A stretch of 64,000 nt of DNA, taken from the NCBI GenBank assembly GCA_963842525.1, contig CAWJGT010000025.1:416001-480000 (forward strand), given 5' to 3'. Positions 9,655 to 33,276 of this stretch are shown here, piece after piece. Every line of letters begins with the position of its first letter. The stretch's first letter is position 1. Origin of the DNA: an uncultured Holophagales bacterium. Lineage in GTDB: Bacteria; Acidobacteriota; Thermoanaerobaculia; Multivoradales; UBA5704. Under the pieces are notes generated by a model. The model was not told the origin of the DNA. It ran no database searches and saw nothing but the letters and a program-made list of their open reading frames with translations. A program made the translations under genes and the position numbers.

Positions 9655-12148
9655 CTATCGCCACGACACCCGCACCCCCACCCTGAGCGTCCGTGGCGCG
9701 AGCGTCTCGCCGGCGAATCCGCCGCGGCCGACCCCGAGGTCGAGATCCCGCGCGAGGACCGTGTCCTCGTTCAGGAAGTTGAGCGCTTCGAGGCTGACGG
9801 TGAGGCCCAGGTCGCCGAAGTACATCTCCTTTTCGAGCCCGGCGTCGACCGTGACGAGGTCGTCCGTGCGCAGGGCGTCAGGGCGGCCGGTGAGCTGCAC
9901 ACGGGCGAGGCCGGCGCGCTCCCGCGCGACCTGGCGGTAGTAGGGGAGCGGGTCGCCCTGGCGGCCATTGACGGCGGCCGAGAGGTTGAAGTTGCGCGGC
10001 AGCCTGACCAGGCCGACGGCCAGGAACGACCAGCGGGCCGCCTGGAAGCGCGGCGTCTCGTGAGGATGCCACGACGCGGTTCCGGCCAGGGGGGCCATGG
10101 GAAGGCCTTCGTCGTCGTCCCCGCCGAGCGCGTTGGTGGGATCGTCGAAGCGCCGGAAGGCGGAGCCGAGCCGCCGGTCTCCGTCCTGCCAGGTGACGTA
10201 CCCCTGGCTCATCCAGCGGTCGGCCAGCCGCTTCTTCCAAGTCAGGGAGAGCCCGCGGTCCTCCTGTTGCCGGTCGCCGCTGTCGCCATTGACGAGGAGG
10301 GTGCCGCCGGTCCACAGCAGGCCGGGCCGGAGGTCCCAGACGGGCACGTCGTAGGGCGTGCCGTCCGGCAGGGCTCCGGTCAGCCGGCTCGTGGGGATCC
10401 AGTCGCCGGAGGTGGCCACGAAGACCTCGCCCGTGGCCAGGTCGCGGACGAGCAGCCTCTCCTCGTGGAGATGGCGGGTCCGCCGCCAGGTCGCCCGCAG
10501 GCCGATCCAGAAGTCGTCCGTCAGCTCGCGTTCGACGCTGAAGACGGCCTCGTCGGTGATTTCCGGCCGGAGGTGGGAGTCGACCGCGTCGGGATCGAGC
10601 CCGGGCCGCAGGGGATCGATCCCCTCGCCCGGCAAGGGCTGGACCGGCTCGCCCGGGTCGAGGTTGAGGTCGCCGTCGCGGTCTTCGAACAGCGAGCGGA
10701 GCACGGCCGGCGCGTCCGGGTCGAGATGCCAGGCGGCGCGGGAGCCCAGCCGCGAGGCGAAACGCCCCAGGGAGGCCCACAGCAGGGTCTTGTGCTCGCG
10801 GTCCCTGGAATGCACGATCCGGCTGAGCCCGAGCCGGGGCGCCAGGGTCCAGGGCCGCGAGCCGCCGTCGATGCCGAGGTCCTGGCGGTCCGCGCGCAAC
10901 CCGGCGATGGCCGTCCACTTGTCGATCGCCACTCTGTCCTGGGCCCAGAGCCCCAGGGCCTCGGTGCGCGCGTCGGCCTTCCCGGCCCGCCAAGCCTCGG
11001 CCATTGCAAGATCTCCCTCGCGGCCGACGACCCTGCCGGCGACCACCAGGGGACCCGGAAGGCTCAGCTCCCGGTCCTCGTCCTGCTCGCGCAGTGCGGC
11101 TCCAAGGTGGATCTCGTGGCTGACCGGCCCCGTGGTCGGGTAGAGGCTGGTGTCGAGCCGGGCCTGGCGTGTCCGCTGCTCCTCCCGCAGGTCGAACCAG
11201 CTCCCGCGGGCCACACCGTCCAGGCCGATCCTCGCTCCGCCGCCGGCCGACCGGGGCAGGTCGCCGAGGCGCCTGTCTTCAAGGCTCAGGCCCGCGGTCA
11301 GGTAGAAATTCGAGGTGAAGATGGGGGTCGCTTCAGCCCCCCAGACATCCTCCCGGCCGTCCTCCTCCCAGGTGATCTCTGGCGCGCGGCCCGGTCCCGC
11401 CCCGATGCCGGAGCCGTCGGAGCCGGTGCGGCTTCCCAGGAGGACGGTGGAGACGGAGCTTCCCGATCTGCGCGTTCAGCTTGAAACGGCTGCTCTCGCT
11501 GGCCCGTTCCTCCTGCTGCCCGCCGAGGACGGTACGGTCAACCTGGCGGAGGCCCGCCTCGCCCCAGATCCAGAGCCGGTCCTGGGACAGCGGCCCGCCC
11601 ACCCAGGCGCTGCCGGTGCGGAGGGTCTCGAGGCGGTTGCCGTCCACGGCGCCGTCCGGCCCGTCGGCGCTCCGGTTTGCGGAGAGCCCACCGTCGCTGC
11701 CCTCGAAGAACCCCGAGGCCCGCCACTGGTTCGTGCCACGTAGATAGTACGGCCTGATCCGCACCCCCGGCATCTCCAGGGTGAGGTCAGAGCCTCCCAG
11801 GCTCACGTGGACCTCCTGCGAGGCGCCGAGGTTGGTGGGCGAAGCGCCCGCCGCATCCCTGGCGGCGGAGAACATTTCCGTGACATCAGGGAAGCCCTGC
11901 GCCACCTCGTTCCGGAGCAACACGAGCAGGGGTGGCGCGCCGCCGCAGCCGCCTTCGCTGCCGCCCACGTTGATGCGGTCCACCAGCACGCCCGGCGTGG
12001 TCTGGAGGATTTCCCAGGGATCGCGCGCCGCCGGAATGGGCTCCGGATCGGAAGATTCTGCCGGCGTCTCCTGGGCGTATACCGAGCCGTCTAAGAGAAA
12101 TGAGAGGGACAGTACGAGCCCGACCGCGAAGAAACGGTTTTTTCGCAT
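9655..12148 (-). CDS. Oar-like TonB-dependent receptor-type outer-membrane beta-barrel with degenerate plug, frameshifted at about 11461
   Basis: Signal MRKNRFFAVGLVLSL; plug motif ARDPWEILQTTPGVLVDRINVGG; VGGPLSQDRLWIW; C-terminal PRTLRVGVRVSWR. One-base removal at GAGCTTC (11456-11462) gives a continuous frame colinear with the barrel of 28884..33209. Confidence 0.82.
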
Positions 12149-12179
12149 CGCCTGCCTCCTTCTGAACAATTGAGGAGAG

Positions 12180-12195
12180 AGCAAGCGATGTGCCA
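12180..12195 (-). promoter_or_regulatory. Sigma54 -24/-12 promoter of the barrel gene
   Basis: Minus strand TGGCACATCGCTTGCT, near-consensus GG-N10-GC. Confidence 0.75.
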
Positions 12196-18058: not shown

Positions 18059-19072
18059 TCATTCTTCTTCCTTGCCGAGACTGAGCTGCGCCTCGATCGT
18101 CACCTCATATCCGCCGTCGGGCAGCTCTCTTTCGCGCACGACGCGGGCGCCTTTCACGAGTTGGTCGACGGTGGCCACGATCTCGTCTTTCTCCACGACG
18201 CCGTCGACCACTCGCGTCTGTGCCTGGATGCGTGTCTCGATGGCCTCGGCAAGCCTGCGGCGCGCATCGACCTCTGCAGCCCGTCTTGCCAGCGCCTTCC
18301 TCCGCTCTGTGGGGAGCTGCGCCGAAGCGAACCCCGTTCCGGAGACCTCGACGCGTGTCGAGAGCGGCGTCTCCTGGGTGGGAGGGGGTGGTGGCGGGGT
18401 GGGGGAGGGCTCCTGCCGCGGGTGATCCTTCCTGGGGGTCTCCTCAGGAGTCTCCTCGACAAGGGGCGCCGGTGTGGCCGCCGGTGGAACGCTCTCTTCA
18501 GGAGCAGCCGTGGAAGGGGCCGCGGGATGCCCTCCCTGCGGGTTCTCCGCACCTGACGGCAAGAGGCGGAAGACGAGGAAGCCGGCAGTAACCAGAAGCG
18601 CCGCGGCCAAGGAGATCTTCCAAACGCCGCGTCGTGACTGCCCGGCAGCCGCTGCGGTGGCGGCCTGTCCGCCAAGGTGACGCAGGAGTGCGCCGTAGCC
18701 GGCTTCCGTGTCCACCTGGAAAAATCGATAACTCCGCAGAGGACGGGGGATGAAGCGTGCGTCGGCGTCCGCGAAGACGACCGGCACGTACTTCTCGTTC
18801 CTCATGCTCGCCTCGAAGAGCTCCTGGATCATCAACTGGCTCTCGAAGGCGGTTCCCTGCCGCCGCCCATAGGCTTCCGTGATGATCACGAGCACGGCGT
18901 CCGCTGCCGCCATCTCCCGCTCCATCCAGCGGGTCAGAGGCTCGTCGATCCGGTCCTCGTCCTGGTCGAGCCGCACTTCCAGCCCATCGCCGCGCAGGCG
19001 CTCTGCAAACTGCCGCACGCGCCGCTCCTGCTGCGGCGTTTCACGGCTGTAGCTGATGAAGACACGCTTCAT
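18059..19072 (-). CDS. SEFIR/TIR domain - TM - Pro-rich linker - LPP20/FlgP-like domain protein
   Basis: MKRVFISYS..FAERLRGDGLEVRLDQ..WMEREMAAADAVLVI..GTAFE..KYVPVVF; TM ISLAAALLVTAGFLVF; C-terminal ALARRAAEVDARRRLAE..LVKGARVV. Confidence 0.8.
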   Translation of the reverse strand: MKRVFISYSRETPQQERRVRQFAERLRGDGLEVRLDQDEDRIDEPLTRWMEREMAAADAVLVIITEAYGRRQGTAFESQLMIQELFEASMRNEKYVPVVFADADARFIPRPLRSYRFFQVDTEAGYGALLRHLGGQAATAAAAGQSRRGVWKISLAAALLVTAGFLVFRLLPSGAENPQGGHPAAPSTAAPEESVPPAATPAPLVEETPEETPRKDHPRQEPSPTPPPPPPTQETPLSTRVEVSGTGFASAQLPTERRKALARRAAEVDARRRLAEAIETRIQAQTRVVDGVVEKDEIVATVDQLVKGARVVRERELPDGGYEVTIEAQLSLGKEEE

Positions 19073-21537
19073 GGTGACAGCACCGGAGCCGCCAGGATCT
19101 CGGACTGTGAGCCGTCCGCCAGGGTGAACCGCGCAAAGACCGTGTCACAGTGCCCCGGCAGGGCGAAGGTCAGCTCTTCCCATTTGCCCTGTGGCCCGAG
19201 GGCACGCTCGTCTTCAAACCGGTCCTCGATCCTGAGCTGATCGCGCGCGCAGCCAAAGGCGACCGAGCGCAGCACGGGGAGGGTGTTCGCGACCGACATG
19301 TATTCGCTGCCGCTGATTTTGAATCCGCAGACCACCGCCTGGCCGGTGATTCCTTGCGGCCGGCGGTCCTCGTCGTATTCCTCCTCGTCTTCGTCGCCGT
19401 CCTCGGGATCGTAGGAGGCACACGTCAGCTTGCTGGCGGAGAAGAGCGCATCGCGCAGGGTTGCGAAGCGGTTGGCTGTGTAATCGACCGTGCCCCGATA
19501 TTCCATCTCCTCGCCGCCGGCCGCGACGAAACGCAATACGAGAAGGCCGCCCTCGGGCTCGGGAAAGCTGACACTGCCGCGGTTCCGGTAGTCCTGTTCG
19601 ACCGTGCTGAAGTTCTTGCCATCGGTCGAAACCCGCACGAACGCAGGTTTGAGGCCGTCGCCAAAGTAGGCGGTCCAGCCCATCGAGTCCTGATGCTTGA
19701 GATAGACCTCGATCTCCTCGGGCATCGAGGCGGACTTTGCCGTGCGCTTGAGCCGGTAATACTGAAGGCCGGCCTTGCGGCCCGGCAAGTGGCCCTCGAA
19801 GGGACAGGCGAAGACCTCCTCCTCACCGCTTGCGAAACGCAAACGGGCCACGTAATCCGTCGGGCCGACCGGCGGCGGCACGCGCTCGAACTCTTTCTCG
19901 AACAGAGACTCGAGGCGTGAGCCGTAGCGGCGGGTGCGCCACAGGGCGCCTTCACCGCGGCCGACGGAGACCTCGTCGAGGATCGCAAGGAATGGATGGT
20001 GGGAGTCGCCGTAGAAGCTCCCTCTGCCGGCCACCAGGCCGCTGCAGGCAAAACGTTGCTTTTCCTCCTTGTCCCAGGCTTGCCAGGCCGACGCGAGCGC
20101 AACGCGGGCTGCCGTCGGAAAATCGAGCGCGAGGCGGAACGGTCCGGCAGGCTCGCCGCCGAGCCCCGGCTGGATCTTGACCCAGACATGGTCCAGGCTG
20201 GCGAGATCCTGCGCGGTTTCGGGCTCGGGGGCGTACCACGGCTCGAACTCCTGGCCGTCGTGGGAATAGAGGACCCGGACATAGCCGGACTGCTTGTCGA
20301 GCGGCCCCTTGAGACCTGGCGGCTGGTCGCCGGTATAGTAGGTTGTGAAGGCCCATTGATCGTTTTCGAAGGCGAGGCGGACCTCGAGGTTTTTCTCGTT
20401 GAGGCTGCTCAGGGTCGGCAGACCCGCCCGTGTCAGGAAGTCGTCGACCCCACCGATCCCGCGGCGGGGGTGGAGCTGGGTGTGGTTGCGGAGGAGCTCT
20501 TCCGGATCGCGCGTGTCGTTGTAGGTGAGATCCACCTGCGCCGTCCCCTCGTTGACGAGGGCGCCCTGGTGGAGCAGGCGCACGGAGACGGACACCGGAG
20601 CCTTGTGCATGAGGCTGATGGAGTATTCCATGCCCTCGACCCGGGTCCACTCGTCTTCCGGCTTGAGCTCCAGGCGGCCCTGACATTCATCCTTCGTGGT
20701 GGCCTTGAAGGCCAGCGGCGCGCCCCCCAGGCTCCAGGAACAGGTGAAACCCGGCGGCAGCTCCGGTCTTCCGCGCGGCACGATCCTGACCGTCGCAGCC
20801 GCGCCTGGTTTGAGCGACGAGCCGCTGACGACCGGCTCGATGGGGATGCCGTTGTGGACCGCACCGCGGACCGAGAGCTCGTCCAGCACTTCATCGTCGC
20901 GGCTGATCCGCACCGAGATGCGCGCGGGAAGCGTGCTGCCGCGGTCCGGCAGCGGCGCGGCCGGCATCGCCACTTCCAGGCGGCAGGCGCCGTCCGGTGC
21001 TGGCGTCCGCAGCACGTCCGCCGGCTCGACGGTCCAGGCACAGCGAGCGCCCTCCAGGGCCTGCAGCGGGGTCGCGACGACCGCCATGACGGCGCGCGAC
21101 CCGAGGCCGAGGAGGTCGAGATCCGCGTCGAGCACGTACTTCGGTGGCGTCTTGTTGAGGAGCGTGTCCGCCAGTGTGCGCAACGCACGGTCGATCTCGG
21201 CGCGATCCTTCTCCAGGGTGTAGGCCCGGATCTTCACGCACAGCTCGCCCGGGCTCTGTCCGTTGTAGAGCTCGGGCTCGCCTTCGATCAACACGTATCC
21301 CGAGGAGGCCGCCTGGATCTTGTCCTTTTGCAGCTTCAGATCCTCGACCTGTGTCAGGCTGGTCACGAGACTTCCGAAAAGTTTCTCCACGGCATCGCGG
21401 CGGGCAGCCAGGAGCAACTCCTGTTTGGCCTCCTCGAGGCTCTTGTTTTCGAGGCTCGTACAGGCGGTCTGCGTAACGACGGTCCGGTCCGGTGCGGCCA
21501 GAGCGAGGGCTGCTGCGAGAAGCAGTTTCATCACCAT
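19069..21537 (-). CDS. Secreted hypothetical protein, paralog B (FlgT-N/LPP20-like N-terminus, Ig-like domains, duplicated C-terminal module)
   Basis: RBS GGAAGAGG; MVMKLLLAAALALAA signal; EEAKQELLLAARRDAVEKLFG; colinear with 21554..23603; stop overlaps the start of the SEFIR gene. Confidence 0.8.
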   Translation of the reverse strand: MVMKLLLAAALALAAPDRTVVTQTACTSLENKSLEEAKQELLLAARRDAVEKLFGSLVTSLTQVEDLKLQKDKIQAASSGYVLIEGEPELYNGQSPGELCVKIRAYTLEKDRAEIDRALRTLADTLLNKTPPKYVLDADLDLLGLGSRAVMAVVATPLQALEGARCAWTVEPADVLRTPAPDGACRLEVAMPAAPLPDRGSTLPARISVRISRDDEVLDELSVRGAVHNGIPIEPVVSGSSLKPGAAATVRIVPRGRPELPPGFTCSWSLGGAPLAFKATTKDECQGRLELKPEDEWTRVEGMEYSISLMHKAPVSVSVRLLHQGALVNEGTAQVDLTYNDTRDPEELLRNHTQLHPRRGIGGVDDFLTRAGLPTLSSLNEKNLEVRLAFENDQWAFTTYYTGDQPPGLKGPLDKQSGYVRVLYSHDGQEFEPWYAPEPETAQDLASLDHVWVKIQPGLGGEPAGPFRLALDFPTAARVALASAWQAWDKEEKQRFACSGLVAGRGSFYGDSHHPFLAILDEVSVGRGEGALWRTRRYGSRLESLFEKEFERVPPPVGPTDYVARLRFASGEEEVFACPFEGHLPGRKAGLQYYRLKRTAKSASMPEEIEVYLKHQDSMGWTAYFGDGLKPAFVRVSTDGKNFSTVEQDYRNRGSVSFPEPEGGLLVLRFVAAGGEEMEYRGTVDYTANRFATLRDALFSASKLTCASYDPEDGDEDEEEYDEDRRPQGITGQAVVCGFKISGSEYMSVANTLPVLRSVAFGCARDQLRIEDRFEDERALGPQGKWEELTFALPGHCDTVFARFTLADGSQSEILAAPVLSP

Positions 21538-21553
21538 GTCGTCCTCTTCCAGA

Positions 21554-23603
21554 TCAAGGCGACGGCACCTGCGGGACCTGGTCGAAATCGACCGCACCCC
21601 GATACTCCACCTCTTCGCCGTCGGCCGCGACGAAACGCAGGATGAGAAGGTCACCCTCGGGCCTGGGGAAGCGGATGCTGCCGCGGTTGTAGCGGTTGTG
21701 TTCGATCGTGCGGAATCGGCCGCCGTGGATCGCGACCCGTACGAATGCGGGCTCGAGCGCCTTTCCAAGATCGCCGAAATAGACCGTCCAATCGAGGGTA
21801 CGCTCGCGATAGAGGTAGACCTCGATCTCTTCGGGGACCGCCGGGATTTCATTCGTTGTGCGCGCCAGGCGGTAGTAGCGGCCACCCTTGCGAATGGACG
21901 AGTCCGTCGATCCCGTGCAGGCGAAGACCTCCTGTTGGCCGTCTGCGAACGTCACGCGGGACAAGTAGTCGGTGGGGCCGACGGGCGTTGCCACGCGTTC
22001 GAAGCCGTCGTTGAACAGGTGCTCGAGGCGGGCATCGTAGCGCTGGCTGCGCCAGACGCTTCCTTCCTCGCGGCCGACGGAGACCTCGGCGATGGTCGCC
22101 AGGTATTGTGCCTCCGCCACGAAACCGCCGCAGGCAATACGCTGCCTCGCCTTCTCGTTCAAGGCGCGCCAGGCGGCCTGGAGCCCGGCGCGTGCCGCCG
22201 CCGGGAAGTCGAAGGCGAGGCGAAAAGGCCCGGCCGGCTCACCACCCCTGTCCGGCTCCAGCTTGACCCAGACGTGGTCGACCCCGGCGAGGTCCTGCAA
22301 GGTCCTGGTGCTGCGATCAGGTTTCCAGCGCTCGAAGACCTCGCCGTCCCGGGAGTAAAGGACCTTGAGAAGGTCGGAGTAGCGGTCGAGGGATTCCGCC
22401 GGTTCGAGCGGCGGGTCGCCAACATAGTGGGTCGTGAGGCCCCAGGAGTGATGCTCGAAGGTGAGGCGCAGCTCGAGCGTCTTCTCGTCGAGGCTGCTCA
22501 GCGGCGGCAGGCCTGCCTGCGCCAGTTGATCGCTGACGACCACCTGGTGAAGGCGTGCGATCAGCTCGTCGGGGTCGCGCGTGTCGCGATACGTGAGCTC
22601 CGTCTCCGCCGACCCGCCGCGGACCAGGTCGCCCTTGTGAAACAGCCGCACGGCGGCGGTGACAGGAAGCGTCGACTTGAGAGCCGCCGCATAGACCCTC
22701 CCCTCGTTCTCGCTCCACTCCGCCTCGGGCTCGAGCTTCCAGACGGCCTTGGCAACGGTCTTCGGTGAGCGGCGTGAAGAGGAGCGGCCCGGCCGGGAAA
22801 TTCCAGGAACAGGTGAAGCCCGGCGGCAGCGCATCCGGCCTGCCCGCCTGCATGATCCTCATCGTGACAGCCGCCCCGGGCGCGAGGAACGGAGTGCTCG
22901 GCAACAGCTCGATGGAGAGAGCGTTGTGCACCACACCGCGCACCGCGAGCTCGTCGAGCCGTTGTCCTGCGCGGCTGATCTGCACAGAAATCCGTGCCGG
23001 AATGGTGCTGCCCCGGCCGGGCAGCGGCTCAGCCGGCATTCTGACCTCCAGCCGGCAGGCGCCGTCCGGCGCCGGCACCTTCAGCACGTCCGCCGGCTCG
23101 ACGCTCCATACGCACTGAGCGCCCTCCAGCGCCTGCGGCGGAGTCGCGGCGACGGCCACCACGGTGCGGGCACCGAGACCGAGCCGGTCGAGATCCGCTT
23201 CGAGCACGTACTTCGGCGCCTTGTGGAGAAGCGTGTCAGCCAGCGCACGCAACGCGCGGTCGATCTCGATGCGATCCTCCTCCGTCGTATAGGCCTGGAT
23301 CTTTACGCACAGCTCGCCCAGGCCCGGCCCATTGAAGAGCTCGGGATCGCCTTCGAGCCGCACATAGCCCACGGACGCCGCCTCAATCTGGTCCTTCTTG
23401 AGCGCCAGGTCCTCTACCTGGGTGAGACTGGTCACGAGGCTTCCGAAGAGCTGTTCCACGGCTTTGCGGCGGGCGGCCGCGAGAAGCTCCCTCCTGGCGT
23501 CCTCCAGTTTCTTGCCTTCGAGGCTCGTACACGCGGTCTGCACGACGACCGTCCGGTCCGGCGCGGACAGCGCGAGAGCTGCCACCAGAAGCAACTTGAT
23601 CAT
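21554..23603 (-). CDS. Secreted hypothetical protein, paralog A, frameshifted at about 22737
   Basis: MIKLLLVAALALSAPDRTVVVQTACTSLE matches paralog B; GAGCTTCCAG here vs GAGCTCCAG in the paralog (about 20665); removing one base joins ORFs 22317..23603 and 21554..22834. Confidence 0.8.
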
Positions 23604-25121: not shown

Positions 25122-25469
25122 GTGGGCAAGCGCGCATTCCTCTTAGCAGTTGTCGCTGTCTGGCTGGCCCGGGCTGCATTCGCCGCGGGAGACACCTGTT
25201 CCAGCGCGGCTGGCTGCGCCGACTGTGAGCACAGGGCCAACGGCCCCGCTTGCATCCTCGTTAGCAGTGATGCGAGCTGTGAGTGCGATCTCTTCGTTTT
25301 TGGCGGCACCATGGCCTGCGGGGTTGATGGCATCTGCGACTACACCGTTGCCGGTGGTGGTGGTGGAGGTGGTGGCGGCGGGGGCGGGGGTGGTGGAGCC
25401 TGTGCAAGGCCGCCCGGCGCATGGTGTCCCTCCGAGTGCTCCTCGTGCGAGACCATCTACTGGTATTAG
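25122..25469 (+). CDS. Secreted Cys-rich mini-protein 1 (8-Cys domain, poly-Gly linker, 4-Cys tail)
   Basis: GGGAGGAGAG RBS + GTG; signal peptide ending AFA; tail CARPPGAWCPSECSSCETIYWY; paralogous to the next ORF. Confidence 0.85.
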   Translation: MGKRAFLLAVVAVWLARAAFAAGDTCSSAAGCADCEHRANGPACILVSSDASCECDLFVFGGTMACGVDGICDYTVAGGGGGGGGGGGGGGGACARPPGAWCPSECSSCETIYWY

Positions 25470-25478
25470 AGGCCCCCG

Positions 25479-25835
25479 ATGAAAACATTCCTGGCATGGA
25501 CCGGCCGTATCCTGCTAGTCCCTGTCCTCGCCTGTGCCCTCGAAGGGACGGGCAACGCCACGGGTTGTACCTCGGCAAGCGGCTGTGCGGATTGCGAGAA
25601 CGCCGCTAACGGCATCGCGTCCTGCATCACTGTGCAGAGAGATGCCCATTGCGAATGCTCGATCAGGGTCACCACACCTACGATGTGTATCCTCGAAGAT
25701 ATCTGCGATTACACAGCCACTGGCGGCGGAGCAGGTGGTGGTGGCGGCGGGGGTGGTGGAGGCACCTGTTCCAGGCCTCCTGGCGCGTGGTGTCCTTCTG
25801 AGTGCTCGTCGTGCGAGACGATTTACTGGTACTGA
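25479..25835 (+). CDS. Secreted Cys-rich mini-protein 2
   Basis: Same Cys scaffold (C-x5-CADCE..C..CEC..C..ICDYT), poly-Gly and tail CSRPPGAWCPSECSSCETIYWY. Confidence 0.85.
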   Translation: MKTFLAWTGRILLVPVLACALEGTGNATGCTSASGCADCENAANGIASCITVQRDAHCECSIRVTTPTMCILEDICDYTATGGGAGGGGGGGGGGTCSRPPGAWCPSECSSCETIYWY

Positions 25836-25854
25836 GCTCGGAGCGGGAAGGAAG

Positions 25855-28182
25855 ATGAAAACCCGGTGCTCGCGATGTGGAAGGGCCGTTCTGATCGGGG
25901 GCATTGTGTTGGCGATGGCTATGGGCGTGCGCTCCGCAGTGGCGGAGGGGCCGGCTGTTGCAGTGCAGGTTCATGTGACGGTACGAGGGGCAGGGGACCC
26001 GGCCGAGGGGCAGAAGGACATCCCGGTGCGGGCCGTGGCTGTCTGGTATGGCAAAGGAAAGGTCGAGCCGCGATCTATCGAGCTTGCCACCACGCGGCCG
26101 GCGACGCTGGCGCTTTCACCGGGGCGCTGGGTTCTGATGGCGGAGGCCGCAGGCTACTGGGGCAGCGAGCACCCCGTTGCGGTCACCCAGACAGCGACCG
26201 AGGTCACTCTGGATCTCTGGCCGGCCGGTCAAGTAGAAGGCGGATACACCGTCCCAGACGGTGAAGCTGCCCCCACCAATCTTTTTGCCTTCTTGAGACC
26301 GGCTCCCGAGGTTGCTGCCTCACAGGCGCCGGCGCCTTCCAAGGTCGTCTGCCCGGTCGAGCGGGAGACATGGCGGTGTACCTTGCCGGCGGGCCTCCTC
26401 GATATCCGGTTCCAGGCGGATGGATTCATCCCGCGCTACCAGTGGGGTATCCGTGTACCGAGAGGTGGCGCGTTACGACTGGGCCGGCTCGACCTGCGGC
26501 GCGGCTCTGCCGTTCTGGGATGGGTGGTGACCGCAGACGGAACCGGGGTAGGTGACAAGGGCCGGGTCGAGCTGCAACCCAAGATGGGCGGTCCCGTCCG
26601 CAGCCAAGAGGACGTGAGCCGTTTGAAGGCCCTTTCGTTCGAGGCGCCCATCCATCCGCGCGGATTTTTTCAGCTCGACGGCGTACCGCCGGGAGCCTAC
26701 GTCCTGGCCGCGAAGCATGATCGCTTCGCCACGGCCGCCACGACGGTAAGAGTCGTCCCGGGTGAGGTCACGGAGATCGCCAATCCGCCGCTCGTGTTGG
26801 ATCTGCCGCAGACCCTCGAGGTCTACTTGAGCCCGCCTCTCGACCCCTGGGGAAAGCCCTGGGCGGTGCGGCTGCTGCGCCTGGACCGAGGCTCCGCGGT
26901 GATGACGAACGTGCTTCTGGAGCCTGCCGAGAGCGGCGGCATCTGGAAAAAAGCAGGGCTTGCACCGGCGTCATATCTCCTGAAGATCGGGCCTCACAAC
27001 GGGGACACCTGGCAAGTGGAAGAGGTGGAGGTCAATGCCAGCCTTGCACCCCTGCACCTTGATATCAACGTTCTCCAGGTCGTCGGCACCCTCCGCCTCG
27101 GGAAGGATCCTCTCGCGGCCAAGCTCACTTTCGGAGGACGCTGGGGAGCGGTCCGCATCCAGGCGCGCTCGGACGACGAGGGAAAATTCCAGGTCTTCCT
27201 GCCGCAGGCAGGGGACTGGAGCGTGCACATTTCCTCCACGGAACCGCCTGTCAACCGCGAGATTCCCAAGCTCGCAATTCAGCCGAAACCGGACACGAAC
27301 GTCGCAGAGCTCGCCATCGATCTGCCGAACACGAAGCTGCGCGGGCGTGTCGTGGATGAAGCCGGGACAGCGGTAGCCGGTGCGCTCGTGAGCGTCCAGA
27401 GCGCGGGCTCCGTCGAAGAGCCAAGGGTGCAGGAGCGCGCGGACGGCGAAGGACAATTCGAAATTCTCGGCCTGCCGTCCGGACCCGTGCAGGTCGGGGC
27501 TGACGCGGCCGGGGATCGTTCGTCCGACCTGATCATCGCGACGATCACGGATGATCAGGAGCTGCCGCCGGTCACCCTGACCCTAAGGCCGCGACTGCGA
27601 ATTTCTGGCACCGTCGCATGGCCGGGCGGAGTGGTCGCAGGAGCGAGAGTGAAAGCAGTACCCGTGGGAATCCCCTACTTCAGCGTACCTTCCACAACGA
27701 GCGATGCCCAGGGCCGTTTCGAAGTGACTGTGCCGCCGGCGACCCGTGAAATGCTCCTGGCAGTCGGCGCGCCGGGTTTCGCGTTCCGAATGCTGCGGAT
27801 TCCCGTCCCTGAGGATCGCCAATTCGTTGTTGGTGTCGAGCAGGCTGGTGGCACTCTCATCGTGAAGACTGAAGGGCCGCACAACCTCCCGGCCCCAGAC
27901 ATTCCTGACATCTTCGTGCTCCAGGGAAGCGCTTTCGAGGGGCTTTTCTATCTGAGGATGTGGGCTGTATCGTCCGGTGCCAACCAGGAGGACCCGACCC
28001 GCTCCGTCATTCCGTTCGTGGAGCCCGGGGAGTACCGGGCCTGTTGGGTATCGCCTGCCGAACAGGCGAGCCTCGCGATCGGGATCATTCCGGAAGGCCG
28101 GTGTGCGAAGGGCTTCCTGCCGCCCAACGGAGAGCTGACTCTCAAGCTGCCCACGCTCCAGACAGCAGGCTCGGCTCGCTAG
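25855..28182 (+). CDS. Secreted carboxypeptidase-regulatory-like (CarboxypepD_reg/prealbumin-like) repeat protein
   Basis: Signal peptide; repeated LRGRVVDEAGTAVAGALV..ADGEGQFEILGLPSG, ISGTV..SDAQGRFEV and FQLDGVPPGAYVL units. Confidence 0.8.
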   Translation: MKTRCSRCGRAVLIGGIVLAMAMGVRSAVAEGPAVAVQVHVTVRGAGDPAEGQKDIPVRAVAVWYGKGKVEPRSIELATTRPATLALSPGRWVLMAEAAGYWGSEHPVAVTQTATEVTLDLWPAGQVEGGYTVPDGEAAPTNLFAFLRPAPEVAASQAPAPSKVVCPVERETWRCTLPAGLLDIRFQADGFIPRYQWGIRVPRGGALRLGRLDLRRGSAVLGWVVTADGTGVGDKGRVELQPKMGGPVRSQEDVSRLKALSFEAPIHPRGFFQLDGVPPGAYVLAAKHDRFATAATTVRVVPGEVTEIANPPLVLDLPQTLEVYLSPPLDPWGKPWAVRLLRLDRGSAVMTNVLLEPAESGGIWKKAGLAPASYLLKIGPHNGDTWQVEEVEVNASLAPLHLDINVLQVVGTLRLGKDPLAAKLTFGGRWGAVRIQARSDDEGKFQVFLPQAGDWSVHISSTEPPVNREIPKLAIQPKPDTNVAELAIDLPNTKLRGRVVDEAGTAVAGALVSVQSAGSVEEPRVQERADGEGQFEILGLPSGPVQVGADAAGDRSSDLIIATITDDQELPPVTLTLRPRLRISGTVAWPGGVVAGARVKAVPVGIPYFSVPSTTSDAQGRFEVTVPPATREMLLAVGAPGFAFRMLRIPVPEDRQFVVGVEQAGGTLIVKTEGPHNLPAPDIPDIFVLQGSAFEGLFYLRMWAVSSGANQEDPTRSVIPFVEPGEYRACWVSPAEQASLAIGIIPEGRCAKGFLPPNGELTLKLPTLQTAGSAR

Positions 28183-28883: not shown

Positions 28884-31800
28884 CTATCGCCACTCCAGGC
28901 GGAGCCCCAGCCGGAAGGTGCGGGGCGCGATGACCTCGTCGGCGAAGCCGCCGCGGCCCACGCCGAGGTCGAGCTCCCGCTGCTGCACGGTGCCTGCGCC
29001 GGAGAGGTTGAACGCTTCGAGGCTCAGCGTGATCCCGGTGTCCCCGGCGTAGAAGAGCTTGTCGAGGCGGGTGTCCAGCGTGACGAGGTCATCCCCGCGG
29101 AAGTCGTCGAACCGGTCGGCGAGCTGCACTGCGGCGATCCCCGCCCGTTCGCGGGCGACCTGGCGGTAGTACGGGAGCGGATCGCCTTCGCGGGCGCTCA
29201 AGGCGGCCGAGAGATGGAGGTCCCAGGGGAGCTGCACCAGGCCGCTCGCATGGAATGCCCAGCGGCTGGCCAGGAACCGGGGCTCCTCGTGCGGCCGGCC
29301 CGATCCTGTCTCGGCTGCCGGCATGCCTTCGTCGTCGCCGCTGCCGAGGGTGTTCGTCGGATCGTCGAACCGGCGGAAGGCGGGGCCGAGCTTCTGCTCC
29401 CCGTCCTGCCAGGTGAGGTGGCCACGAGTCATCCAGCGGTTTGCCAGGCGCCTCTCCCAATGCAGGGTGAGCCTTCGATCCTCCCGCTGCCGGTCGCCGT
29501 TGACGAGCAGGGTGCCGCCGGTCCAGGCGAGGCCGGGGCGGAGGTCGTAGAAGGGCACGTCGTAGGGCGTGCCGTCCGGCAGGACACCGGTCAACCGGCC
29601 CGCGGGGCTCCAGTCGGTGGCCGTCGCGAGGAACGTCTCGCCGGTTGCACCCTCACGGACGAGAAGGCGCTCCTCCAGGAGGTGGCGCGTCCGCCGCCAA
29701 GTCGCCCTCAGCCCGACCATGAAGGTGTTCTGGAACGCCTGCTCGATCCCGAGGATGGCCTCGTCGGTGATCTCCGGCCGCAGGTCCGGATCGACGGTGT
29801 CGGGATCGAAGCCTGGCCGTAGGGGGTCGAGGCCTTCTCCGAACAAGAGCCGCACCGGCTCGCCCGGATCAGGGAGCAGGTCGCCGTCCAGATCCGAAAA
29901 CAGCGAGTGGAGGACCGCCGGGGCGCCGGGATGGAGGTGCCAGGCGGCCCGGGACCCGATCCGGGAGGCGAACCGCCCCAGGGAGGCCCGCAGCAAGGTC
30001 TGGCGCTCGGAGCCCAGGGCGCGGGTCAATCCGAGGCGTGGGGCAAGCGTCCAGGGACGGGACCCGCCGGAGATCCCGAGGTCCTGGCGATCGAGGCGGG
30101 CTCCCAGGATCGCCGTCCACCGGTCGATGTTGAGGGTGTCCTGGGTCCAGAGGCTGGAGGTCTCGGTGTGGATGGTTGCCACGCCGCCGCGCCAGAGCTC
30201 GACCAGCGCGAGGTCTCCCGCCAGGCCGAGTGCTGCACCCGCGATTCCCAGCCGGTCCGGAGCGGCCAGGGCGCGGGTCTCGTCCTGCCCGCGCCAACTC
30301 GCGCCGAGCATGACCTCGTGAGAGGCGGAACCGGTGTTGAAGAAGGAGGAGGAATTGAGCCGAGCCTCGTCCGTCCGCTGCTCGTCGGTGATCCCGAACC
30401 AGCTTCCGCGAGCCACTCCCGCGGAATCGATCCAGGCGTCCCCTTCCTGCCGTGGGATGTCGCTCAGGCGGATCTCGCTGCCTCCCCAGGCTCCGGTCAG
30501 ATAGAAATTCGCTGTAGGGACGTAGGTGGCCTCGGCCCGCCAGAGAGTCTCGCGGCCCTCCTCTTCCCAGGTGGTCTCCGGCGCGCGGTCCGGTCCGGCA
30601 CCGGCACCGGAGCTCTCGGACTTGCCGCGGCTCCCCGTCAGGTCGGCGGAGAGGGCGGGCAGGAGTTGGGCGTTGAGCTTGAGGTTGCCGCTCTGGCGGA
30701 CGCGGTCCTCCTCCTGTCCTCCGAGAGCGATATGGCCGATCTCGCCATGGCTCGCTTCGCCCCAGATCCAGAACCGGTCCCGGAGGAGGGGTCCGCCGAC
30801 TTCCGCCTCCCCGGACTGGAGGCTCTCGAGATGGTTTCCGGGCACGCCGGCCTCGGCGCTCCGCTCTCCGGCGAGCGCTCCGCCGCTCCACTGGGCGAGA
30901 CCCGAGGCCCGCCAGAAGTTCGTTCCGCGTGGCAGGAGGGCCCGGATCTGCGCTCCCGGTGTCTCCAGGGTGACGTCGGTTCCACCGGTGGTGACTTCCA
31001 TCTCCTCGAAGGCGTCGAAATCAAAATAGCTGGGGCTGGAGCCGGTCGCCGCCATGTTGGTAAAGATCAAGCCGTCGACGGAGAAAGTGTTCTGCCCCGC
31101 GGTCGTCCCGGCCAGGACGGCAGCCGGCTGCTGGCCGCTCTCGTTGCCGCCGACGTTGATGCGGTCGGTCAGAACCCCCGGCGTGGCCTGGAGGACGGCC
31201 CAGGGATCGCGCGCTCCGGGGATCAGGGCCAGCTCGGTCTGCGATACGGTGGCGCCGGTGGAGATCCGCCGCTCGTCGAGGAGAGGGACCGCCGCCGTCA
31301 AAGTGATCATCTCCGACACTTGCGATGGATCGACGTCAGGCGGCAGCCCCCCTCCCGACCCGCGCGGCGCGTTCAGGGGCAGCGGCTGGAGTGGCGCCGC
31401 CACGCCGGCCGGCGCGGTCGGCTCCACGTCCACGGCGACGAGGCTGGTGTACGGTGTGACCAGATGGTGCCGCAGCCCGAGCTCGGTCACGGTGCGCTGC
31501 ACCTCCGCGGCATCGGCCCCCTCTTGCAGGCTGTCCATCAGGGCCTGGATCTTGCGGCCGGCCCACAGTTTGTCGAGCCCGGCGCCTTTGACCTCGGCGG
31601 CGGCCGGCAGCTCGTCCTCCCAGGAGCTGCCGGCGCGCAGGCCCGAGACCGCCACGGGCCCGCTGTCGCGCAGGCGGGCGGCGACCACCAGGGGCTCGCC
31701 CAGGTAGAGGTCGGGCACCCGTTCGGGCACGGCCTCCGCGCCCGGATCGGACCACCGGACGTCGATCTGCCGGAGCATCGGCGCCTCCAGGCGGGCGAAC

Positions 31801-33209
31801 AGGCTTGTCATCCCTTCGGTGACTTTTTCGAGGCTGGCGATGTGGGTGAAGGAGCCGCGGCCGAGGTCCGCCGCCCGCCGCAGGAAAGCGGCATTGGGGG
31901 CCGGACCGATCGCCACCGTGAACAGCCGCCGGTCCGCGAGGTGGCCGGGGAGGTAGCGCAGGATGTCCGATTCGTTGTCGACCTGGCCGTCCGTGATGAA
32001 GACCACCTGCTGGACGAGCCCGCCCGGCCCCGGCCCGCGCAGGGCGACCTCCAGGGCCGGCAGCATCTCGGTGCCGCCGGTCGTTGCGAGCGCCGTCACG
32101 TACTGCCGCGCCTGCTGAACAGTGGCCGGATTCGCCGGGATACTGTCCTGGAACAGCGCCGAGGTGGTGCTGTTGAACTGGACGACGTTGAACCAATCCG
32201 CCGACCCGAGGCGGTCCAGGCCCAGGAGAAGGGCCTGCCGTGCCTGCTCGATCGCCGGCCCGTCCATCGAGCCGGAGGTGTCGATCACGAAGACAGTCTC
32301 TCGGGGGAGACGGTAGGCGGCCACCCCAGCCGCGTCGGGAGGCATCATCATCAGCAGGGCGTAGCGCTCGCCGTCCACCTCCTCCGTGAAGTAGACCGCC
32401 CGGGGCTCGCGGCCGGTCTCGGGCGCCCACTCCAGGACGAAGTCGCCGTCCGCGAACGCCATGCCGCCGGCAAGGTCCACGGCCCAGCGGAGCCGCTTCG
32501 GGTCGCCCTGGACCGCGATCCTGTGCGTTGGGCTTGTGATGCCTGTCAGAGGGAAGCCGGGCGCAAGGTCGACGTGCAGGGCGAAAGGATTGATCGGGCT
32601 CATGCCTGGCGCCAGCACGGGAGGCTCGGGGATCGCAGGTGCGCAGGCGCCGGCGCTCTGTCCCGCCGGAGGGGTGTACCGCGGTGTCGCGAGCATGGGG
32701 AATTGCAACGTGAACCGTCCCGCCTGGTAGCGCACCACCTGCTGGAGCTCGATCACGACCTCCACCGTTTCGCCGGGTCCCACATTGGAGACCGAAGTGG
32801 TGAACAGACCCGGCCGGAGCTGATCGAGAAGCGATGCCTTCCGCCCTTCCTGCGCAGCGGCTTCGAAGGTCTGTTTCGCCTGCGCCTTTTCCTGGACGAC
32901 GCCTTCGAGAACCCGGTCGCCAACGACGAGACGCAGCGTGTCCACGGCCGCGCCGTCCGGCAGTGGAAAGAGATAGATCCCGCTCAGCCAGCTACCGGTC
33001 GGATTGCGGAAGATCTGGGTGACCTTCGTGCGCGCCACGATACCGGTGATGCGCACCTCGACCGTGGTGCCGAGCACGGGAGCGGCGACCACGGAGCCCT
33101 GCGCCGTCTGGAGCACCAAACCGCTCTCATTCTCCGCACACCATGCGGGGTTTCCGATCATCCAGAGAGACAGAAGAATCCCAGCCGTCAGCCAACGGTA
33201 TCTGCACAT
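28884..33209 (-). CDS. VIT + vWA (inter-alpha-trypsin inhibitor heavy chain-like) domain fused to Oar-like TonB-dependent receptor plug and barrel
   Basis: Signal peptide; VIT (ARTKVTQIFRNP..YLFPLPDGAAV); MIDAS VFVIDTSGSM and VFITDG; LVTPYTSLVAV; then EMITLTA..ARDPWAVLQATPGV..NVGGNESGQQ plug; C-terminal PRTFRLGLRLEWR. Confidence 0.88.
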   Translation of the reverse strand: MCRYRWLTAGILLSLWMIGNPAWCAENESGLVLQTAQGSVVAAPVLGTTVEVRITGIVARTKVTQIFRNPTGSWLSGIYLFPLPDGAAVDTLRLVVGDRVLEGVVQEKAQAKQTFEAAAQEGRKASLLDQLRPGLFTTSVSNVGPGETVEVVIELQQVVRYQAGRFTLQFPMLATPRYTPPAGQSAGACAPAIPEPPVLAPGMSPINPFALHVDLAPGFPLTGITSPTHRIAVQGDPKRLRWAVDLAGGMAFADGDFVLEWAPETGREPRAVYFTEEVDGERYALLMMMPPDAAGVAAYRLPRETVFVIDTSGSMDGPAIEQARQALLLGLDRLGSADWFNVVQFNSTTSALFQDSIPANPATVQQARQYVTALATTGGTEMLPALEVALRGPGPGGLVQQVVFITDGQVDNESDILRYLPGHLADRRLFTVAIGPAPNAAFLRRAADLGRGSFTHIASLEKVTEGMTSLFARLEAPMLRQIDVRWSDPGAEAVPERVPDLYLGEPLVVAARLRDSGPVAVSGLRAGSSWEDELPAAAEVKGAGLDKLWAGRKIQALMDSLQEGADAAEVQRTVTELGLRHHLVTPYTSLVAVDVEPTAPAGVAAPLQPLPLNAPRGSGGGLPPDVDPSQVSEMITLTAAVPLLDERRISTGATVSQTELALIPGARDPWAVLQATPGVLTDRINVGGNESGQQPAAVLAGTTAGQNTFSVDGLIFTNMAATGSSPSYFDFDAFEEMEVTTGGTDVTLETPGAQIRALLPRGTNFWRASGLAQWSGGALAGERSAEAGVPGNHLESLQSGEAEVGGPLLRDRFWIWGEASHGEIGHIALGGQEEDRVRQSGNLKLNAQLLPALSADLTGSRGKSESSGAGAGPDRAPETTWEEEGRETLWRAEATYVPTANFYLTGAWGGSEIRLSDIPRQEGDAWIDSAGVARGSWFGITDEQRTDEARLNSSSFFNTGSASHEVMLGASWRGQDETRALAAPDRLGIAGAALGLAGDLALVELWRGGVATIHTETSSLWTQDTLNIDRWTAILGARLDRQDLGISGGSRPWTLAPRLGLTRALGSERQTLLRASLGRFASRIGSRAAWHLHPGAPAVLHSLFSDLDGDLLPDPGEPVRLLFGEGLDPLRPGFDPDTVDPDLRPEITDEAILGIEQAFQNTFMVGLRATWRRTRHLLEERLLVREGATGETFLATATDWSPAGRLTGVLPDGTPYDVPFYDLRPGLAWTGGTLLVNGDRQREDRRLTLHWERRLANRWMTRGHLTWQDGEQKLGPAFRRFDDPTNTLGSGDDEGMPAAETGSGRPHEEPRFLASRWAFHASGLVQLPWDLHLSAALSAREGDPLPYYRQVARERAGIAAVQLADRFDDFRGDDLVTLDTRLDKLFYAGDTGITLSLEAFNLSGAGTVQQRELDLGVGRGGFADEVIAPRTFRLGLRLEWR

Positions 33210-33276
33210 TGTCCCTGCCTCCAAGAGAGCCCGTCCTCATGAGAAGACGGTCCAAATAAATCTGACAGGAGGAAAG

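What the first reader, a model, noticed from the sequence alone, without database searches (positions are those of the whole stretch)
18059..23603. Three-gene operon: two paralogous secreted proteins coupled to a SEFIR/TIR - TM - LPP20-like receptor
Seen: paralog A, paralog B and the SEFIR gene are co-directional, with a 16-bp gap and a 4-bp overlap. The receptor has an N-terminal cytoplasmic SEFIR/TIR domain that keeps the alphaC Glu (GTAFE), one TM helix and an extracytoplasmic domain with ALARRAAEVDARRRLAE. Both secreted proteins start with a related helix motif (ARRELLAAARRKAVEQLFG / AKQELLLAARRDAVEKLFG). Established: bacterial TIR and SEFIR domains act as NAD+-consuming immune effectors activated by oligomerisation; LPP20/FlgT-N/FlgP-like domains occur in envelope ring assemblies. 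Inference: a Toll/IL-17R-like trans-envelope sensing system, with periplasmic co-receptors clustering the SEFIR receptor through homotypic domains for defence or cell-contact signalling.
Basis: partly seen in the sequence, partly recalled or inferred. Interest (0 to 1): 0.78.

Follow-up and report, generated by a model that had tools for sequence, protein, structure and literature searches.

The report
Split SEFIR receptor with docking partners
A soil-type bacterium encodes a membrane protein with an immune-type NAD-cleaving domain inside the cell and two exported partner proteins that probably clip onto its outer end, one example of a wider, unnamed anchor-plus-interchangeable-sensor gene pair whose function is untested.

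Summary
The operon is real. Gene A carries one extra base near 22739; contigs of three runs lack one base there, so this is an assembly error. R is SEFIR (Glu77 kept) - one TM helix - Pro-rich stalk - LPP20-like domain. A and B begin with an unannotated FlgT_N-like domain, followed by two Ig-like domains and a novel ~225-aa repeat.

That N-domain defines a large family of secreted proteins with interchangeable C-terminal domains, mostly glycan-binding folds where recognisable. An R-type anchor gene lies upstream in 6 of 12 informative locus sets. A TIR-TM protein elsewhere carries B's repeats fused directly.

However, none of 12 R-type homologues carries TIR or SEFIR, so the conserved core is anchor plus passenger and SEFIR is a lineage-specific addition.

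Best reading: a two-piece, Toll/IL-17R-like receptor built on an LPP20/FlgT_N docking platform (about 0.4). Binding, NADase activity and defence are untested. I found no description in nine literature searches.

The parts
21554..23603 (-). Gene A: secreted partner, ~682 aa when the extra base is discounted. Signal peptide, FlgT_N-like domain, two Ig-like domains, one full and one partial ~225-aa repeat
22738..22740 (-). Approximate site of the one-base insertion that splits gene A in this assembly (probable assembly error)
   Evidence: three contigs with a single one-base gap across this interval
23274..23555 (-). Gene A N-terminal FlgT_N-like (SHS2-like) putative docking domain, two invariant Cys
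19069..21537 (-). Gene B: secreted partner, 822 aa, no Pfam/NCBIfam/PADLOC match
21202..21483 (-). Gene B N-terminal FlgT_N-like putative docking domain
   Evidence: hhalign 97% to a FlgT_N set (two of the Acidobacteriota set members confirmed by Pfam); Atlas lead FlgT_N at 0.88
20515..21150 (-). Gene B: two Ig-like beta-sandwich domains (stalk)
19072..20457 (-). Gene B: two tandem ~225-aa repeat units of no named family (putative sensor); fused behind TIR-TM in P0154
   Evidence: unit 1 vs unit 2 hhalign 94%; P0154 scores 129 bits on a profile built without it
18059..19072 (-). Gene R: 337-aa single-pass membrane protein, SEFIR - TM - Pro-rich linker - LPP20-like
18692..19066 (-). Cytoplasmic SEFIR domain; conserved Glu77 at 18842-18844
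18569..18625 (-). Transmembrane helix (residues 150-168), preceded by SRR (positive-inside)
   Evidence: Kyte-Doolittle 2.02; sequence
18077..18361 (-). Extracytoplasmic LPP20-like (SHS2-like) domain; an inserted beta-hairpin is inferred from the alignment

Best explanation
A two-piece trans-envelope receptor built on a conserved docking platform. R spans the inner membrane and holds an LPP20-like domain outside on a Pro-rich stalk (shown by sequence). Exported A and B dock on it through their FlgT_N-like N-domains, probably by beta-sheet extension into hetero-oligomers as FlgP/FlgT-type domains do (inferred). Their Ig stalks present the C-terminal repeats as ligand sensors (inferred). In this lineage the anchor has gained a SEFIR domain, so ligand-driven clustering of A/B would cluster SEFIR and switch on NAD+ cleavage or a nucleotide signal (inferred; Glu77 is intact). 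I put docking at about 0.7 and the SEFIR read-out, given docking, at about 0.55.
For: An R-type anchor gene lies upstream of N-domain genes on the same strand in 6 of 12 informative non-redundant locus sets (7 of all 19). The R profile was built without those loci and finds only this locus in the 9.95-Mb own genome. The same pair occurs in congener G477 with both variable ends swapped: two-helix N-terminus on the anchor, PA14 + AbfB on the passenger, 3-bp gap. The family has constant N-domains and variable C-domains: 33 of 99 scanned proteins have a C-terminal Pfam hit at E<=1e-5, of which 21 are glycan-binding or ConA-type folds and 4 are FGE/Lcl_C. 132 of 147 have a hydrophobic N-terminus and 1 of 147 an internal TM, so they need a separate anchor. 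P0154 is TIR_2 - TM - B's repeats in one chain. FlgP, Lpp20 and FlgT share an SHS2-like fold whose ring formation correlates with a beta-hairpin insert (PMC12222027, passages). Bacterial SEFIR depletes NAD+ (10.1101/2024.02.11.579819, passages). These three domains are the only members of the superfamily my profiles found in this genome, and no FliG_C was found.
Against: None of 12 R-type homologues has TIR or SEFIR. One has a sub-threshold CHAT match, two have zinc ribbons, and the rest have only membrane helices or a signal peptide. P0013, on a contig of the same length as A-type P0010, looks like R with the SEFIR deleted. Six of 12 informative locus sets show no R-type gene. The genome has 84 TIR_2 matches, and 11 of 77 checked have a TM behind the TIR, so a SEFIR fusion can be incidental domain shuffling. 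The flanking genes are a symporter, a histidine kinase and a beta-lactamase-fold protein, not defence genes. A flexible ~65-residue stalk can pass on clustering but not a conformational change.
Confidence: 0.4

Rival explanations
1. Surface or periplasmic display only: R anchors interchangeable binding proteins (adhesion, glycan capture, cell contact), and the SEFIR is a recent, dispensable fusion with no outside-in role.
For: SEFIR is present in 1 of 13 R-type proteins read; apparent SEFIR loss in P0013; many passengers are glycan-binding folds; TIR shuffling is rife in this genome.
Against: The SEFIR is full-length with Glu77 and scores well on bSEFIR. The SEFIR-TM-B junction is also covered by an X1 contig about 4% divergent. 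B's repeats are independently coupled to a TIR-TM in P0154.
Confidence: 0.27
2. IL-17R/ACT1-like adaptor signalling: clustered R recruits another SEFIR protein by SEFIR-SEFIR contacts, such as the cytoplasmic SEFIR-kinase-FGE protein on contig C1, and signals through phosphorylation rather than NAD+ loss.
For: The genome has three SEFIR matches. One is SEFIR - Ser/Thr kinase - FGE-sulfatase, 42% identical to R's SEFIR. SEFIR-SEFIR recruitment is the IL-17R mode (10.1101/2022.05.11.491447, passages).
Against: The two genes are unlinked. Shared identity may only reflect a common source of the domain. R keeps the catalytic-position Glu.
Confidence: 0.15
3. Guard mode: docked A/B hold R in an inactive spacing, and envelope attack (predator enzymes, phage or contact-dependent weapons) removes or cleaves them and lets SEFIR self-assemble.
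For: Tight translational coupling of B and R (4-bp overlap); relatives of the passenger carry a trypsin domain, and one locus has a caspase-domain gene upstream.
Against: Passenger diversity points to ligand binding rather than one decoy. No data on R toxicity without A/B.
Confidence: 0.12
4. Flagellar or CsgG-type envelope ring accessory (ordinary LPP20/FlgT_N operon).
For: Same superfamily; FlgT_N-LPP20-CsgG operons occur in other Acidobacteriota and in L012.
Against: No FliG_C match in this 96%-complete genome. No CsgG-like gene among the flanking genes scanned. None of 99 N-domain proteins hits FlgT_N or LPP20 at E<=1e-3. The cassette is patchy (2 of 92 genomes in the family).
Confidence: 0.04

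Closest known systems
bSEFIR anti-phage protein (PADLOC PDLC03957; Bacillus sp. NIO-1130 SEFIR, 10.1101/2022.05.11.491447)
   Same: N-terminal SEFIR domain (E 3e-32; PDB 5y8f E 5e-6 with the Glu aligned).
   Different: The match covers only model positions 39-185 of 412. Here SEFIR is on a single-pass membrane protein with an LPP20-like ectodomain and two secreted partners; bSEFIR is described as a single-protein system.
FlgP / Lpp20 / FlgT-N SHS2-like envelope domains (PF02169, PF16548; IPR024952)
   Same: Homologous domains in R, A and B, with the inserted hairpin inferred from alignment; extracytoplasmic.
   Different: Not lipoproteins; no flagellum detected; the domains are fused to SEFIR-TM or to variable binding domains; the N-domain falls below Pfam detection and has two invariant Cys.
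One-piece bacterial TIR-TM-ectodomain proteins (P0154; 11 of 77 TIR ORFs of this genome have a TM)
   Same: Cytoplasmic TIR-like domain, one helix, outside sensor; P0154 shares the same repeats.
   Different: Here the sensor is a separate secreted chain, and there are two of them.
Animal IL-17 receptors / Toll-like receptors
   Same: Topology: SEFIR inside, one TM, Ig/FnIII-like sandwiches outside, activation by clustering (analogy; IL-17R mechanism from passages).
   Different: No homology outside the SEFIR; the Ig-like part is on a separate protein; the bacterial domain is probably an enzyme.
Cohesin-dockerin display of cellulosomes (recalled, not tested)
   Same: Logic of one anchor plus interchangeable passengers sharing a docking domain.
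   Different: Unrelated fold; passengers are mostly binding domains rather than hydrolases; the anchor can carry a cytoplasmic domain.

Membership tests
bSEFIR defence system | N-terminal SEFIR domain scoring as SEFIR | tested here: met
   PADLOC bSEFIR E 3e-32; top PDB hits are SEFIR structures. In Pfam, TIR_2 scores slightly above SEFIR (54 vs 47 bits).
bSEFIR defence system | Homology over the whole protein (C-terminal part of the bSEFIR model) | tested here: not met
   Match limited to model 39-185 of 412; the rest of R is TM, linker and LPP20-like.
bSEFIR defence system | NAD+ depletion and phage defence | not testable with these tools
   Glu77 conserved; no activity data.
bSEFIR defence system | Location in a defence island | tested here: inconclusive
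   The flanking genes scanned are not defence genes; only the three operon genes were scanned against PADLOC.
Thoeris | TIR sensor gene plus linked signal-reading effector (SIR2/Macro/SLOG type) | tested here: not met
   No ThsA-type PADLOC or Pfam match for A, B or the flanking genes scanned; only a weak ThcB4 match for R (17 bits vs cut-off 220).
LPP20 / FlgT_N (SHS2-like) superfamily | Profile homology to LPP20 or FlgT_N domains | tested here: met
   R: LPP20 E 7e-4; homologue P0014 above the cut-off. N-domain: 97% to a FlgT_N set.
LPP20 / FlgT_N (SHS2-like) superfamily | Oligomerisation or ring formation through the beta-hairpin insert | not testable with these tools
   Insert inferred from alignments only; no structure of these domains was modelled with confidence.
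Flagellar FlgP/FlgT disk system | Flagellar motor genes in the genome | tested here: not met
   FliG_C 0 matches in G000 (96% complete); the control found it in 4 of 14 genomes.

The most novel reading that the evidence does not exclude
A widespread, undescribed 'plug-and-play' receptor platform in bacteria. A membrane anchor with an LPP20-like domain assembles FlgT_N-like secreted subunits carrying interchangeable lectin or ligand-binding domains, and different lineages wire it to different cytoplasmic outputs (SEFIR, CHAT-like, zinc ribbon). This locus would be a heteromeric Toll/IL-17R-like receptor with separately encoded co-receptors, turning an outside ligand into NAD+ cleavage.
Probability: 0.3. 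Interest if true: 0.85.

Novelty: new variant of a known kind. Interest (0 to 1): 0.64.

Why it matters
Bacterial TIR/SEFIR enzymes with proven function sense signals inside the cell. An outside-in version with separable sensor subunits would make receptor clustering directly testable by swapping passengers with known ligands (PA14, F5/8, C-type lectin). Independently of SEFIR, the work defines an unannotated secreted family (131 of the 150 listed 50%-identity clusters match only this domain; 310 hits in all) and its membrane anchor. That suggests a non-flagellar use of the FlgP/FlgT ring-forming fold as a docking device.

Tried and rejected
- Complex prediction of the R ectodomain with the B N-domain: verdict 'no answer', scores 0.04 and 0.00, controls not folded; not evidence either way.
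- Single-sequence AF2 of B was unusable (pLDDT 35).
- Foldseek on the passenger model gave only generic multi-Ig matches, TM<=0.2. VIA-align mostly tested residues 4-216, so the repeat units' fold is barely tested.
- ESM Atlas: no usable hit for B 345-821.
- Locus scans with A1 found nothing in metagenome or genome contigs, so the contigs of P0006-P0013 could not be read; their linkage rests on equal contig lengths only.
- The class sample found only the own genome (1 of 401).
- The phylum sample gave 52 of 401, but apart from G000 all were weak. The 11 loci read were ordinary FlgT_N-type genes; the matches at profile 185-327 are presumably PA14 and were not read.
- The G416 match lies in another frame over an unrelated gene and was dropped. 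L011 was not read.
- No plasmid match for either query.
- No sigma-70-type promoter match.
- No RNA holder listed.
- Pairwise identities of 8 cognate N/R pairs correlate (r 0.59), but shared ancestry explains this, so it was not used.
- Earlier scan notes had no look-alike by place or sequence.
- Rejected: A as a pseudogene; flagellar role.

Full report
OBSERVATION. The three genes lie on the minus strand: A 23603-21554, B 21537-19069, R 19072-18059, with a 16-bp gap and a 4-bp overlap. As assembled, A breaks near 22739. Its first 288 codons match B 1-288 at 71% and a second frame matches B 289-685 at 52%; the GC3-rich position shifts at that point. Contigs from three runs of three studies each cross the interval with one gap and one base fewer than the window. 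X2 has no substitutions and may be the same strain, so it is not independent on its own. The row with the exact position was not shown. Four A-type homologues are intact. I read A as an intact ~682-aa gene with an assembly error. X1 contigs about 4-5% divergent bridge R-B and B-A, and an X3 contig bridges B-A.

THE MEMBRANE PROTEIN R. Residues 3-127 match TIR_2 and SEFIR, PADLOC bSEFIR (model 39-185 of 412) and the solved B. cereus SEFIR, with Glu77 on its conserved Glu. One TM helix (150-168) and a Pro-rich linker lead to an LPP20-like domain (E 7e-4, below cut-off; homologue P0014 passes). A search with residues 150-337 gave 8 proteins, 5 of them close relatives. Their N-termini differ: a sub-threshold CHAT match (P0017), a two-helix hairpin (P0015, P0016) or almost nothing (P0013, P0014). 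P0013 starts with a SEFIR-like first strand running straight into the TM, which suggests deletion of the domain (inference). P0016 and P0021 are named Thermoanaerobaculia by their source, which suggests the lineage of this genome.

THE N-DOMAIN FAMILY. The profile search gave 310 hits; 131 of the 150 listed match only the ~100-aa N-domain. Of 147 such proteins held, 132 have a hydrophobic N-terminus, 1 an internal TM and 3 a lipobox-like motif; most carry a second, degenerate repeat that A and B lack (rough patterns). Of 99 scanned with Pfam, none hits FlgT_N or LPP20. Thirty-three have a C-terminal hit at E<=1e-5: 21 glycan-binding or ConA-type (PA14, F5/8, LamG, GH43_C2/DUF1349, C-type lectin, CBM48-like, PUD), 4 FGE/Lcl_C and 8 others; 66 have none at that level (my tally). 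Profile comparison places the domain with FlgT_N (97%), R's ectodomain likewise (96%), and the two with each other weakly (55%, score 27.9 vs at most 16.8 in 40 shuffles). FlgP, Lpp20 and FlgT share an SHS2-like fold, and ring formation correlates with a beta-hairpin insert (PMC12222027, passages read). Both domains here have an insert at that place by alignment (inference).

SYNTENY. In congener G477 an R-type gene with a two-helix N-terminus sits 3 bp upstream of an N-domain-PA14-AbfB gene. A metagenome scan gave 26 loci (GC 37-69%), 19 sets after merging near-duplicates. An R profile built from six proteins outside these loci hit 9 of 26 loci, or 7 of 19 sets, and 6 of the 12 sets with at least 790 bp upstream, always on the N gene's strand. 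In the own genome (faster filters) it hit only this locus. Six informative sets had no hit; in two the N gene is cut or preceded by mobile-element-like sequence, and in one the upstream genes are further paralogues. Tandem N-domain paralogues recur (L058, L059, L060). The seven R-type proteins read there are TM - Pro/Thr stalk - LPP20-like, two with a zinc ribbon, one secreted and one a probable lipoprotein. None has TIR or SEFIR. With the five, that is 0 of 12.

GENOMIC SETTING. The cassette is accessory: N-domain in 2 of 92 family genomes, absent beside the symporter gene in three congeners, and GC3 0.78-0.82 against 0.88-0.93 in the three adjacent downstream genes. The genome has 84 TIR_2 matches, 11 of 77 checked with a TM behind, three SEFIRs including a SEFIR-kinase-FGE protein, and no FliG_C, FlgT_N or LPP20 family match (the LPP20 search found nothing in its controls either and missed R itself).

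MECHANISM. Shown: topology, homologies, linkage, modular swapping at both ends, and the fused analogue. Inferred: docking of A/B on R, ligand binding by the repeats, clustering, and NAD+ cleavage (bacterial SEFIR depletes NAD+: 10.1101/2024.02.11.579819, passages; defence and SEFIR-SEFIR contacts: 10.1101/2022.05.11.491447, passages). I give 0.4 to a two-piece SEFIR receptor, 0.27 to display with an incidental SEFIR, 0.15 to adaptor signalling through the SEFIR-kinase, 0.12 to a guard mode and 0.04 to an ordinary ring accessory.

LITERATURE. Nine full-text searches found no description of an LPP20/FlgT_N pair with TIR/SEFIR or of this family. LPP20+TIR gave one unrelated paper and Thermoanaerobaculia+TIR none. 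Word searches in PMC8195603 and PMC11237479 found no LPP20, FlgT, SHS2 or SEFIR. PMC10907252 passages describe TIR, CHAT and trypsin effectors with CLec sensors, some periplasmic. PMC12828022 was seen as a listing only. No supplements were read; domain tables of the conflict-system papers could hold such architectures, and subscription journals were not searched. Earlier scan notes on one-piece TIR-TM proteins are unchecked leads and only show that this topology recurs.

VERDICT. Real and rare as a SEFIR trio. It is one instance of a broader, apparently unnamed anchor-plus-passenger module. It is not a bSEFIR or Thoeris member by the tests run. It works like a receptor with separate co-receptors if docking and activity hold.

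Noticed in passing
window 25122-25835 (+): Two tandem small paralogous secreted Cys-rich proteins (115 and 118 aa) with a poly-Gly linker and near-identical C-terminal Cys motif, followed by a carboxypeptidase-regulatory-like repeat protein (25849-28182); no convincing Pfam match for the small ones.
   Followed up: no
window 28884-33224 (-): 1446-aa fusion of VIT and vWA domains to a TonB-dependent-receptor-like plug (below cut-off) and probable barrel.
   Followed up: partly
window 9655-12190 (-): A shorter paralogue of that barrel region appears spread over different frames, possibly another assembly indel.
   Followed up: no
G000:C1:222561-224813 (L080): Cytoplasmic SEFIR - Ser/Thr kinase - FGE-sulfatase protein, SEFIR 42% identical to R's.
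   Followed up: partly
whole genome G000: 84 TIR_2 matches in 9.95 Mb, an unusually large TIR repertoire; at least 11 with a downstream TM helix.
   Followed up: partly
window 17989 joined to 23463, run X3: A contig of a related organism joins the symporter gene to a diverged N-domain sequence in the opposite orientation, suggesting a different version of the cassette at the same site.
   Followed up: no
L058:4057-14593 and L059:2941-8881: Clusters of several N-domain and R-type genes with zinc-ribbon, FGE-sulfatase and PPC domains; larger versions of the module.
   Followed up: partly
L014-L042 (various Acidobacteriota): Recurrent FlgT_N gene next to a CsgG-like gene, often after an adenylate-cyclase-like membrane protein (CsgG and cyclase labels recalled, not scanned).
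   Followed up: no
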